Assembly: GCA_000004985.1 (NCBI GenBank)
Contig: GG739326.1
Length of the DNA stretch: 1,789 nt
Reading direction: 5' to 3' (one strand)
Source: Naegleria gruberi
Taxonomy: Eukaryota
This document shows positions 1 through 1,789 of the stretch, piece after piece. The translations under genes were made by a program, and so were the position numbers. Position 1 is the stretch's first letter; the number at the start of each line of letters is the position of its first letter. The notes under the pieces were generated by a model that made no database searches, was not told where the DNA came from, and saw nothing but the letters and a program-made list of their open reading frames with translations.

Positions 1-15
1 ATGTAAAGATTCATT

Positions 16-294
16 TTATTCATCTGTTTGATATTTTCTCTTAAATTCTTCTTCCATTTGTTTCCATACAGCTTTATTCCATTCCTGCTGTGGTATTTCT
101 GGTTCCCTTGCTTTCACAGGGTCGTTTGTAATGGTGAGTTTTTCAGGGTTGTAATAGCTGTAGTATTTTCTTTTCTTATGATTCTTTGCCTTCCTAAATT
201 GCCTATTCATTAAATATCTAAACCAAATGAATATAGGTACAAATAGCATAAACGCAATACTACCAATAACTTGAATCCAAAATGCACCGAGCAT
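16..294 (-). CDS. Hypothetical small membrane protein (92 aa) with an N-terminal hydrophobic helix followed by a polybasic cluster and an acidic tail. Alternatively a detached C-terminal part of the upstream gene.
   Basis: 93-codon open frame, ATG at 292-294 and TAA at 16-18, which is long for ~33% GC DNA. Residues 3-25, GAFWIQVIGSIAFMLFVPIFIWF, are strongly hydrophobic and are followed immediately by RYLMNRQFRKAKNHKKRK, a positive-inside pattern. The C-terminus is acidic (QMEEEFKRKYQTDE). Codon usage matches ORF1. Weaknesses: the start lies only 26 nt after ORF1's stop, -3 is C, and there is no room for an independent promoter. The overlapping plus-strand ORF 28..213 is a poly-Phe shadow. 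Confidence 0.45.
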   Translation of the reverse strand: MLGAFWIQVIGSIAFMLFVPIFIWFRYLMNRQFRKAKNHKKRKYYSYYNPEKLTITNDPVKAREPEIPQQEWNKAVWKQMEEEFKRKYQTDE

Positions 295-320
295 GAGCTT
301 TACGTATTCAGTTGGATCTA

Positions 321-1409
321 TTAAATTATGGCTGTATTAAAACTGAGACCAATAGCAATATTCAAGATAATAGAAAAAAACGTAATCAATTTAAAAGTAA
401 CCTCGAGAACATTTGTGGTGGTATCACTGTTAATCAATATACTCTTATTGTTGATTGAATTTAGCATGGCATCCATAATTGTCAAAAAGGCTGCATATGC
501 TCCTGTTTTGAAAAAGCTTGAATTTAAAACATCTACTATTGCAGCCAATATCTTGCTATCTCTGAAATTTTGATTATGATCTGTATAGACAGTAGTGTCA
601 TTTCTACTATAGTAGGTTGGATAGATAGCAGTTGTATTTTGTTTGTCCATTCCTAACCCTGACAAAGTGTCGAAGGGAATGAGATCACTAAGAGTGGTCA
701 TAACGATTAACAAACTGATGGCAGAACCGAAAGCAACATTGTACCATGAAACAAGTGAAGTCTCTCTTTTTTGAACAAAGTCCTTCTTGTTTGTTTTGAT
801 ATCTTTCTCAAGAGTTTCGTATTTCTTTTCAACCTCTTTAATAGCTTTAAGCAGTGTTCTTTTTTCTTCCCAACCTTTTTGAGCAACTTGTGGATCAACA
901 TGCACATTCACCAACGCTTCAACATCTTCTACCAAAACATTTCCATCAATTTCCATAACACTATCATAAATCTTTTTGTAGGACTCGTCTAAATTAGCAG
1001 CACCTACTGTCCTACAAAAGTTTAGCCAAGTTGTTTCTCCATCCTCCCCAAAATAAAAATTGAAAAAAGGTGTTCTAGTAGTAACTGGAGGATCTGGTAA
1101 TTTGCTAATTACACTCTTCAATCCATAGTAGCTAGTCGCAATCAATTCAATTCTTTCTCCAACATAGGTAGTGGTGTCAATTCCTTCTAAATCACCCAAC
1201 TTATTGTCGTATTCTTCTATTTTCTTCTTATGTTCTGAAAAAAATTTCACACAGTTGTGGAAGGATGCAGAGGCAAATTTGATAAGTTTTCCTATCTTCT
1301 TCCACTTTTTGTAACGCCGAGCATAGTCGCTTGAGTTTCCTGTACGTGTCACAATACCACAACAACCTTTGTTGGTTTTCTTGCCTTTTGCTTTGTTCTG
1401 AGATGACAT
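321..1409 (-). CDS. Hypothetical membrane protein (362 aa). Cytosolic-type N-terminal region of ~218 aa with a coiled-coil segment, then two hydrophobic helices flanking a ~95-aa sequon-rich loop. Family not recognised.
   Basis: Uninterrupted 1089-nt frame in stop-codon-rich AT-rich DNA, ATG at 1407-1409 and TAA at 321-323. The context gagaATG has A at -3. Codon bias is consistent (AGA, TTG, GGT, CAA, GAA). Residues ~178-215, EEKRTLLKAIKEVEKKYETLEKDIKTNKKDF, are heptad-like and K/E-rich. Hydrophobic helix 1 spans residues ~219-245 (nt ~675-755), with core VAFGSAISLLIVMTTL. Hydrophobic helix 2 spans residues 339-362 (nt 324-395), FKLITFFSIILNIAIGLSFNTAII, and ends the protein. The antisense ORFs inside it are F/L/K-rich low-complexity shadows. 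Confidence 0.85.
   Translation of the reverse strand: MSSQNKAKGKKTNKGCCGIVTRTGNSSDYARRYKKWKKIGKLIKFASASFHNCVKFFSEHKKKIEEYDNKLGDLEGIDTTTYVGERIELIATSYYGLKSVISKLPDPPVTTRTPFFNFYFGEDGETTWLNFCRTVGAANLDESYKKIYDSVMEIDGNVLVEDVEALVNVHVDPQVAQKGWEEKRTLLKAIKEVEKKYETLEKDIKTNKKDFVQKRETSLVSWYNVAFGSAISLLIVMTTLSDLIPFDTLSGLGMDKQNTTAIYPTYYSRNDTTVYTDHNQNFRDSKILAAIVDVLNSSFFKTGAYAAFLTIMDAMLNSINNKSILINSDTTTNVLEVTFKLITFFSIILNIAIGLSFNTAII
396..674 (-). other. Inter-helix loop of ORF1 (residues ~246-338), enriched in N-x-S/T sequons and Ser/Thr/Asn.
   Basis: Four canonical sequons, N258-T-T, N270-D-T, N296-S-S and N321-K-S, fall within ~95 residues. The loop has no cysteines. It contains an amphipathic stretch, SKILAAIVDVLNSSFFKTGAYAAFLTIMDAML. 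This pattern is expected for a lumenal or extracellular loop in a eukaryotic membrane protein. Confidence 0.35.
765..878 (-). other. Predicted coiled-coil segment within ORF1 (residues ~178-215).
   Basis: K/E-rich heptad-like sequence KGWEEKRTLLKAIKEVEKKYETLEKDIKTNKKDFVQKRE with hydrophobic residues (L, I, V, Y, F) at roughly a/d spacing, immediately N-terminal to hydrophobic helix 1. Confidence 0.4.
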
Positions 1410-1575: not shown

Positions 1576-1789
1576 ATGGTTAACATTCGTGATTTTGATA
1601 AACAGCCTGAAGCACGAAGTAAAGCAGCACGAAATGAAGCAACCCTAAAAGAAGAAGAGGACAACACCACACTTTATCAATGGTTCCTAGATCTTGGTAG
1701 AGCAATCCAAAATGCAGGTACAGAAGATAGTCCCTTGTCTAAATTGATGTTAGTTTCCAAAGAACAATGGTTTTTGGATGCCAAAGAAT
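1576..1789 (+). CDS. Hypothetical protein, N-terminal fragment of at least 71 codons. The ORF continues beyond the window end.
   Basis: ATG at 1576-1578 is the first ATG after an in-frame stop at 1531-1533. There is no stop through position 1788: MVNIRDFDKQPEARSKAARNEATLKEEEDNTTLYQWFLDLGRAIQNAGTEDSPLSKLMLVSKEQWFLDAKE. The context cagcATG has A at -3 and an A-rich leader. It diverges from ORF1 across a 166-bp intergenic region. Composition is hydrophilic with no hydrophobic helix. Not in the supplied ORF track, presumably because it lacks a stop within the window. Confidence 0.6.
   Translation, partial: MVNIRDFDKQPEARSKAARNEATLKEEEDNTTLYQWFLDLGRAIQNAGTEDSPLSKLMLVSKEQWFLDAKE

What the first reader, a model, noticed from the sequence alone, without database searches (positions are those of the whole stretch)
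16..1409. Two same-strand ORFs 26 nt apart, one ending and one beginning in a hydrophobic helix: split gene or ultra-compact pair?
ORF1 ends ...FKLITFFSIILNIAIGLSFNTAII-stop at nt 321. ORF2 begins 26 nt later with MLGAFWIQVIGSIAFMLFVPIFIWF followed by RYLMNRQFRKAKNHKKRK. If joined they would form a membrane hairpin (helix 2, short turn, helix 3) with a positive-inside cytosolic tail, which is a very natural topology. ORF2's frame is open back to nt 336 (stop at 337-339), so a single -1/+2 shift anywhere in 324-336 would fuse the two into a ~450-aa three-helix protein. For a eukaryote, a 26-nt gap leaves no room for a terminator plus promoter. If both are real independent genes this is an unusually compact or co-transcribed arrangement. 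There is no homopolymer at the junction, so a sequencing indel is not especially favoured. The ambiguity is genuine.
Basis: partly seen in the sequence, partly recalled or inferred. Interest (0 to 1): 0.55.

Follow-up and report, generated by a model that had tools for sequence, protein, structure and literature searches.

The report
One gene split by a missing base
The two neighbouring reading frames are the front and back of a single Naegleria gruberi membrane-protein gene whose frame is broken by one missing base, either a sequencing error on a tiny draft scaffold or a very young mutation, so the finding is ordinary.

Summary
Both ORFs lie on the minus strand: ORF1 at 1409..321 (362 aa) and ORF2 at 294..16 (92 aa), 26 nt apart, with ORF2's frame open back to nt 336. 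The window is a complete 1,789-nt scaffold of the Sanger draft genome of Naegleria gruberi NEG-M. ORF1 is annotated as NAEGRDRAFT_54957; ORF2 is not annotated.

The only relative found in about 1.8 billion representative proteins is a 497-aa N. gruberi paralogue, NAEGRDRAFT_53624. It reads straight through the junction (...SFNTAI|NLIAPNEYLKLMLGAFW...). In tblastn, paralogue residues 1-359 match window 1409..327 in one frame and residues 360-463 match 327..22 in the next frame. The two matches share nt 327, so exactly one base is missing. The "26-nt spacer" codes for conserved linker residues. Restoring the base gives a 464-aa protein with a helix, short turn, helix and basic tail.

Identity to the paralogue is the same before and after the break (78.4% and 78.3%), and the downstream frame still looks coding. 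The break is therefore a consensus error or a very recent mutation, and I cannot tell which. Two independent genes, programmed frameshifting and a mini-intron are not supported. Interest is low.

The parts
327..1409 (-). Codons 1-361 of the gene (ORF1 frame, Met1 to Ile361). This is annotated as NAEGRDRAFT_54957 / XP_002668099.1.
   Evidence: tblastn of the paralogue: residues 1-359 match 1409..327, frame -3, 283/361 identical.
327..327 (-). Frame break. This single A serves both as the third base of Ile361 (ATA, 329-327) and the first base of Asn362 (AAT, 327-325), so one base is missing compared with the paralogue's I359-N360.
   Evidence: The two tblastn matches abut in the paralogue (359|360) and overlap by exactly nt 327 in the window. 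The codons were read directly.
321..326 (-). Out-of-frame codon ATT (Ile) plus a premature TAA stop, both created by the frame break. This is the apparent end of ORF1.
   Evidence: The paralogue has no stop here.
295..327 (-). Linker codons N362-L372 (NLIDPTEYVKL) in ORF2's frame. This covers the supposed 26-nt intergenic spacer plus 7 nt overlapping the end of ORF1, and it is actually coding.
   Evidence: 8 of 11 residues are identical to the paralogue's NLIAPNEYLKL.
16..294 (-). ORF2, which is codons 373-464 plus the stop of the restored gene. Its Met corresponds to internal M371 of the paralogue.
   Evidence: Codon usage is coding-like only in this frame (+0.13 bits per codon against -0.35 and -0.36, with 0 stops against 6 and 10). 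The sequence is not present as a separate protein in any collection.
678..734 (-). Hydrophobic segment 1 (residues 226-244, AFGSAISLLIVMTTLSDLI), preceded by a basic flank.
   Evidence: Kyte-Doolittle 19-residue score 1.76. The flank has 5 K/R.
345..401 (-). Hydrophobic segment 2 (residues 337-355, VTFKLITFFSIILNIAIGL).
   Evidence: Kyte-Doolittle score 2.02. The AlphaFold secondary structure of the paralogue shows a helix at 326-362, though the model is low-confidence.
226..282 (-). Hydrophobic segment 3 (residues 377-395, FWIQVIGSIAFMLFVPIFI).
   Evidence: Kyte-Doolittle score 2.23. The paralogue model shows a helix at 366-422 after a break at 363-365.
163..225 (-). Basic juxtamembrane cluster (residues 396-416, WFRYLMNRQFRKAKNHKKRKY).
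   Evidence: 9 K/R and 0 D/E. It is nearly identical in the paralogue.

Best explanation
ORF1 and ORF2 are not two genes. They are the 5' and 3' parts of one 464-codon gene, a paralogue of N. gruberi NAEGRDRAFT_53624. Its reading frame in this sequence record is broken because one base is missing at nt 327, between the codons for Ile361 and Asn362. I put that part at about 0.93.

The intact product is a lineage-specific membrane protein. It has a roughly 220-residue basic, coiled-coil-rich N-terminal region and three strongly hydrophobic helices (possibly four). The last two helices form a hairpin joined by a short D-P-T-E-Y turn and are followed by a very basic tail.

Of the two ways a base can go missing, I think a base-calling or consensus error is somewhat more likely (about 0.5 overall). 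The record is a 1.8-kb orphan scaffold of a Sanger draft assembly. On this reading the organism carries an intact gene, and the annotated 362-aa model is a truncated artefact.

Shown: the homology, the exact position of the frame change, and the lack of decay downstream. Inferred: that the missing base is technical, and the membrane topology.
For: 1. Source. ORF1 is 100% identical to a predicted N. gruberi protein on a contig of exactly 1,789 nt. The NEG-M genome is a Sanger draft with 1,977 scaffolds and an N50 of 160 kb (PMC9928731 Table 1). This scaffold is therefore an orphan only about two read-lengths long, and the break lies 327 nt from its end.
2. The paralogue P0002 (497 aa) is continuous across the junction. 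tblastn gives residues 1-359 matching 1409..327 in frame -3, and residues 360-463 matching 327..22 in frame -2 (E = 1e-30). The matches abut in the query and share one nucleotide in the window.
3. The spacer translates to NLIDPTEYVKL against the paralogue's NLIAPNEYLKL, 8 of 11 identical.
4. There is no decay after the break. Identity is 283/361 upstream and 47/60 downstream (Fisher p = 1.0). The frame stays open for 103 codons and ends within a few residues of the paralogue's C-terminus. Codon usage is coding-like only in that frame.
5. There is only one lesion in 1.4 kb of coding sequence.
Against: No reads, quality values or independent assembly could be examined, so the technical origin is an inference from context. 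A very recent genuine frameshift predicts exactly the same sequence features. A scaffold can also be short because repeats flank it rather than because coverage is low, and in that case the consensus would be reliable. The last 44 residues of the restored protein align poorly with the paralogue's tail, with indels. This could reflect relaxed constraint, although it could equally be a fast-evolving disordered tail.
Confidence: 0.5

Rival explanations
1. The frameshift is genuine and recent. The base really is missing in the NEG-M genome, so this copy is a young pseudogene. At most it encodes a 362-aa protein truncated just after hydrophobic helix 2, lacking the last helix and the basic tail. 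ORF2 would be an untranslated relic.
For: The anatomy is the same as for the best explanation. The family has only two members and is specific to N. gruberi, and young, redundant duplicates of that kind often lose one copy. The C-terminal 44 residues are much more diverged from the paralogue than the rest.
Against: There is no second lesion. Identity is equal before and after the break (78.4% and 78.3%). The downstream frame is intact with coding-like codon usage. If real, the lesion must therefore be very young relative to the roughly 22% protein divergence of the duplicates. The sequence context, an orphan Sanger scaffold with the break near its end, favours an error.
Confidence: 0.42
2. Two independent or co-transcribed genes in an ultra-compact arrangement. 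ORF1 ends naturally at 321, and ORF2 is a separate 92-aa single-pass membrane protein started at ATG 294, for example by reinitiation.
For: ORF2 has its own ATG and an intact frame. The Met is conserved in the paralogue.
Against: In the paralogue that Met is internal (M371), and the 11 residues before it are encoded by the spacer in ORF2's frame. ORF2 is not annotated and has no stand-alone homologue. A 26-nt gap leaves no room for eukaryotic 3'-end and promoter signals, and reinitiation after a 362-codon ORF is inefficient (general knowledge).
Confidence: 0.03
3. The break is real but is bypassed during expression. This could happen by programmed -1/+2 ribosomal frameshifting in 324-336, or by splicing of a tiny GT...AG intron (343..318, 26 nt) that restores the frame and keeps the helix-turn-helix (...NIAIGL-N-PTEYVKLMLGAFW...).
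For: A GT...AG pair of length 26 (2 mod 3) does exist and would give an in-frame product that retains both helices.
Against: There is no X XXY YYZ slippery heptamer between the -1-frame stop (339-337) and the ORF1 stop. The downstream RNA has no unusual structure (z = 0.23, with 110 of 200 shuffles folding as well). 66 frame-restoring GT...AG pairs of 400 nt or less occur in this AT-rich sequence, and the three length classes are equally common (7, 6 and 7 for pairs up to about 200 nt long that span the stop), so the 26-nt pair is what chance predicts. The candidate intron would delete SFNTAINLID, which the paralogue translates. 26 nt is far below the median Naegleria intron of 80 bp reported for N. 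lovaniensis (PMC6125883).
Confidence: 0.03

Closest known systems
NAEGRDRAFT_53624 (XP_002670404.1, UniProt D2W003), a 497-aa predicted protein of Naegleria gruberi on a 245-kb contig
   Same: It is colinear over the whole length. Identity is 78% over residues 1-359 and 78% over the next 60 residues. It has the same N-terminus (MSSQNKAKGKKTNKGCCGIV), the same coiled-coil stretch (EVEKKYETLEKDIKTNKKDFVQKRETSLVSWYN), the same hydrophobic helices and the same basic cluster MNRQFRKAKN.KKRKYYSY.
   Different: It is one uninterrupted ORF. Its C-terminal tail is about 33 residues longer and aligns poorly after residue 419. No function, domain or further relatives are known for it.
Frameshift-split gene models in draft genomes (single-lesion pseudogenes or consensus indel errors)
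   Same: There are two adjacent same-strand ORFs in different frames. A homologue spans both, and its two alignment blocks abut in the protein and overlap by 1 nt in the DNA. The annotated model stops at the first in-frame stop.
   Different: Nothing distinguishes this case from the general kind. It is the textbook signature.
Programmed -1 ribosomal frameshift sites (for example retroviral gag-pol and coronavirus ORF1a/1b)
   Same: The downstream ORF is in the -1 frame and overlaps the end of the upstream ORF by a few codons.
   Different: There is no slippery heptamer, no stimulatory downstream structure, and a paralogue that needs no frameshift.

Membership tests
NAEGRDRAFT_53624/54957 orphan protein family (N. 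gruberi-specific) | Significant colinear sequence similarity over the full length, including the region downstream of the ORF1 stop | tested here: met
   phmmer E = 2e-178. tblastn blocks at 1-359 and 360-463 with E = 0 and 1e-30. The global alignment of the restored 464-aa protein is colinear.
Frameshift-split single gene | A homologue's alignment switches frame at one point with no loss of homologue residues, and the DNA overlap or gap is not a multiple of 3 | tested here: met
   The blocks abut at paralogue residues 359|360 and share nt 327 in the window, so there is 1 nt too few.
Old (decayed) pseudogene | Multiple disabling lesions, or higher divergence downstream of the first lesion | tested here: not met
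   There is a single lesion. Identity is 283/361 against 47/60, Fisher p = 1.0. There are 0 stops in 103 downstream codons. dN/dS could not be computed because the paralogue's DNA was not retrievable.
Sequencing or assembly artefact | The missing base is absent only from the low-coverage or low-quality consensus and is present in independent reads | not testable with these tools
   No reads or second assembly were available. Exact-protein look-ups of ORF1, ORF2 and the paralogue found no other contigs. The only evidence is contextual: a 1,789-nt orphan scaffold of a Sanger draft.
Programmed -1 ribosomal frameshift | Slippery heptamer X XXY YYZ in the overlap | tested here: not met
   The overlap 336-324 reads T ACA GCC ATA ATT, which contains no such heptamer. 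The TTTT upstream runs straight into the -1-frame stop at 339-337.
Programmed -1 ribosomal frameshift | Stable stimulatory RNA structure a few nucleotides downstream | tested here: not met
   MFE is -18.9 kcal/mol against a shuffle mean of -19.6, z = 0.23. No Rfam match at E of 1 or below.
Spliceosomal intron bridging the two ORFs | GT...AG boundaries with length 2 mod 3, at a length typical for the genus, removing sequence that homologues do not translate | tested here: not met
   GT...AG pairs exist, for example 343..318 at 26 nt, but 66 such pairs occur by chance. All of them delete residues the paralogue translates, and 26-32 nt is far below the 80-bp median.
Independent compact or polycistronic gene pair | ORF2 conserved as a stand-alone gene with its own start | tested here: not met
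   There is no stand-alone ORF2 protein in any collection. Its start is an internal Met of the paralogue, and homology extends 11 codons upstream of it.

The most novel reading that the evidence does not exclude
The frameshift is real, and N. gruberi still makes use of both halves. This could be as a full-length protein, through an unconventional -1/+2 recoding event or a 26-nt mini-intron (343..318) far shorter than typical Naegleria introns. Alternatively it could be a true gene fission, in which a 362-aa protein and a 92-aa single-pass protein are made from one transcript and reassemble their transmembrane hairpin.
Probability: 0.03. Interest if true: 0.6.

Novelty: new member of a known kind. 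Interest (0 to 1): 0.1.

Why it matters
It matters mainly for annotation hygiene. The public gene model NAEGRDRAFT_54957 (362 aa) is probably a truncated version of a 464-aa protein, and the region downstream of it is coding rather than intergenic. The case also illustrates that tiny orphan scaffolds of draft assemblies produce apparently ultra-compact gene pairs. The protein family itself has two copies, is found only in N. gruberi, and has no detectable relatives or domains. It is an orphan membrane-protein family of unknown role, which is mildly interesting for lineage-specific gene birth, but nothing here makes a broader question testable.

Tried and rejected
- **Domain searches.** Pfam and PHROGs scans of ORF1, ORF2 and ORF3 gave only sub-threshold coiled-coil noise, for example SKA2 at 15 bits against a cut-off of 30.
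- **Phage DNA.** blastn against phage records found nothing.
- **Remote homologues.** phmmer of the paralogue against 1.84 billion representatives returned only this window's ORF1. A metagenome scan with the two-sequence alignment gave 600 pattern matches, none confirmed.
- **Independent DNA copies.** Exact-protein look-ups of the paralogue, ORF1 and ORF2 all returned 'not on record'. The paralogue's DNA, and therefore dN/dS and the ancestral hexamer at the break, could not be obtained.
- **Word-index search with the ORF2-frame peptide (window 19-327).** It found nothing, not even the known paralogue, so that negative result is uninformative.
- **ORF3.** No homologue was found.
- **Structure.** The AlphaFold model of the paralogue from a single sequence had mean pLDDT 39.8 and pTM 0.24. 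I used only its secondary structure, with caution, and ran no fold search because the matches would be meaningless.
- **Third tblastn match.** Paralogue residues 461-489 matched window 170..69 in ORF1's frame at E = 0.28 with an internal stop. I rejected it as chance, because the same DNA already encodes RKYYSYYN, which is homologous to paralogue residues 411-419, in ORF2's frame.
- **Recoding and splicing.** Programmed frameshifting and intron rescue were considered and not supported.
- **Literature.** A search for the locus tags and accessions found no paper.

Full report
**1. What is in the window**

The window is AT-rich (about 34% G+C). It carries two ORFs on the minus strand:
- ORF1 runs 1409..321 (362 aa, stop TAA at 323-321).
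- ORF2 runs 294..16 (92 aa).

They are 26 nt apart (295-320). ORF2's frame is open upstream to nt 336, closed by a TAA at 339-337. The only omission is that everything lies on the minus strand. A third frame on the plus strand (ATG at 1576) runs off the end of the window.

**2. Where it comes from**

ORF1 is 100% identical to a predicted protein of Naegleria gruberi (NAEGRDRAFT_54957, XP_002668099.1, UniProt D2W6E7). The contig that carries it is 1,789 nt long, so the window is an entire scaffold. The N. gruberi NEG-M genome is a Sanger draft of 40.9 Mb at 35% G+C, in 1,977 scaffolds with an N50 of 160 kb (PMC9928731 Table 1). This is therefore one of its tiny orphan pieces. ORF2 is not present as a protein in any collection searched.

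**3. The decisive comparison**

Only one other relative exists in the 5.8-billion-cluster collection and in a full HMMER scan of 1.84 billion representatives. It is NAEGRDRAFT_53624 (XP_002670404.1), 497 aa, on a 245-kb N. gruberi contig. It is one continuous protein and reads ...NIAIGISFNTAINLIAPNEYLKLMLGAFWTQVVGS....

tblastn of this paralogue against the window gives two blocks:

| Paralogue residues | Window | Frame | Result |
|---|---|---|---|
| 1-359 | 1409..327 | -3 | 283/361 identical |
| 360-463 | 327..22 | -2 | E = 1e-30 |

The blocks abut in the protein with no residue lost, and they share a single nucleotide, 327, in the DNA. Ile361 is ATA (329-327) and Asn362 is AAT (327-325), so five bases stand where six are needed. 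That is the signature of one missing base.

The supposed 26-nt spacer plus the preceding 7 nt encode NLIDPTEYVKL. This matches the paralogue's NLIAPNEYLKL at 8 of 11 positions. ORF2's start codon is the paralogue's internal M371.

Restoring the base yields a 464-aa protein that is colinear with the paralogue through residue about 420. After that the tails diverge, and the paralogue carries about 33 extra residues. Both tails still end in a similar W..W...E....R.Y motif.

**4. What the protein looks like**

No Pfam or PHROG family matches. No relatives exist outside N. gruberi.

Hydropathy gives three strong helices, at residues 226-244, 337-355 and 377-395. The last two are joined by a short acidic turn (D-P-T-E-Y) and followed by a segment with 9 K/R and no acidic residues.

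The flank before helix 1 is also basic (5 K/R). If both basic flanks are cytosolic, an even number of membrane spans is needed. A weakly hydrophobic fourth segment at 287-305 (score 1.11) could supply it. This topology is an inference.

A single-sequence AlphaFold model of the paralogue is unreliable (pLDDT 39.8). Its secondary structure nevertheless shows helix 326-362, a break at 363-365 and helix 366-422, which fits a hairpin. I ran no fold search on it. The 362-aa ORF1 product would lack the last helix and the basic tail.

**5. Real mutation or error?**

There is no sign of decay downstream of the break:
- Identity to the paralogue is 78.4% before it and 78.3% (47/60) after it, Fisher p = 1.0.
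- The frame remains open for 103 codons.
- Codon usage trained on ORF1 is positive only in ORF2's frame (+0.13 bits per codon against -0.35 and -0.36).
- The other two frames contain 6 and 10 stops.

The lesion is therefore either not in the organism at all or is very young compared with the duplication. The context is a 1.8-kb orphan scaffold in a Sanger draft, about two read-lengths long, with the break 327 nt from its end. That tips me slightly towards a consensus error (about 0.5) over a genuine recent frameshift (about 0.4).

I could not examine reads, or the paralogue's DNA, or any independent assembly. This remains undecided.

**6. Alternatives**

- **Two independent genes.** This is contradicted by homology running through the spacer and by the lack of any stand-alone ORF2.
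- **Programmed -1 frameshifting.** There is no slippery heptamer, no stimulatory structure (z = 0.23) and no Rfam match.
- **A frame-restoring mini-intron.** A GT...AG pair at 343..318 (26 nt) would keep both helices. However, 66 frame-restoring GT...AG pairs occur in this AT-rich sequence. All of them remove residues the paralogue translates, and 26 nt is far below the 80-bp median Naegleria intron.

**7. Verdict**

This is an ordinary frameshift-split gene model in a draft genome, affecting one of two copies of an N. gruberi-specific orphan membrane protein. Interest is low. The practical outcome is a correction to the annotation of NAEGRDRAFT_54957.

Noticed in passing
window 1576-1789 (+), with intergenic region 1410-1575: A third open frame starts at ATG 1576 (MVNIRDFDKQPEARSKAARNEATLKEEEDNTTLYQWFLDLGRAIQNAGTEDSPLSKLMLVSKEQWFLDAKE...) and runs off the scaffold end. 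It is transcribed divergently from ORF1 across a 166-nt AT-rich spacer. It is not annotated and has no Pfam, PHROG or sequence homologue. It may be the 5' end of another orphan gene cut by the scaffold end.
   Followed up: partly
window 16-147 (-), compared with paralogue residues 420-497: The C-terminal tails of the two paralogues diverge sharply after ...KKRKYYSY(Y/H)N. The paralogue has about 33 extra residues, yet both end in a similar W..W...E....R.Y motif. This could be a fast-evolving disordered tail, an indel, or a gene-model problem such as a retained intron in the paralogue.
   Followed up: partly
whole window, with paralogue P0002: The family has only two detectable members, both in N. 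gruberi. No relative appears among 1.84 billion representative proteins, although genomes of N. fowleri and N. lovaniensis have been published (whether their proteins are in that library was not checked). It is a lineage-specific orphan with a strictly conserved N-terminus, MSSQNKAKGKKTNKGCCGIV, which contains a Cys-Cys pair that could be a lipidation site.
   Followed up: partly
window 1-15 and 1789: The scaffold ends only 15 nt after ORF2's stop and inside ORF3. No 3' UTR or neighbouring sequence is available, and there are no terminal repeats that would explain why the piece failed to join a larger scaffold. The repeat finder reported only two short, probably chance, pairs.
   Followed up: partly
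window 28-213, 328-573 and 771-992 (+): Several 60-85-codon ORFs lie antisense to the gene. They are hydrophobic or low-complexity shadow frames typical of AT-rich coding DNA and are not evidence of genes.
   Followed up: no
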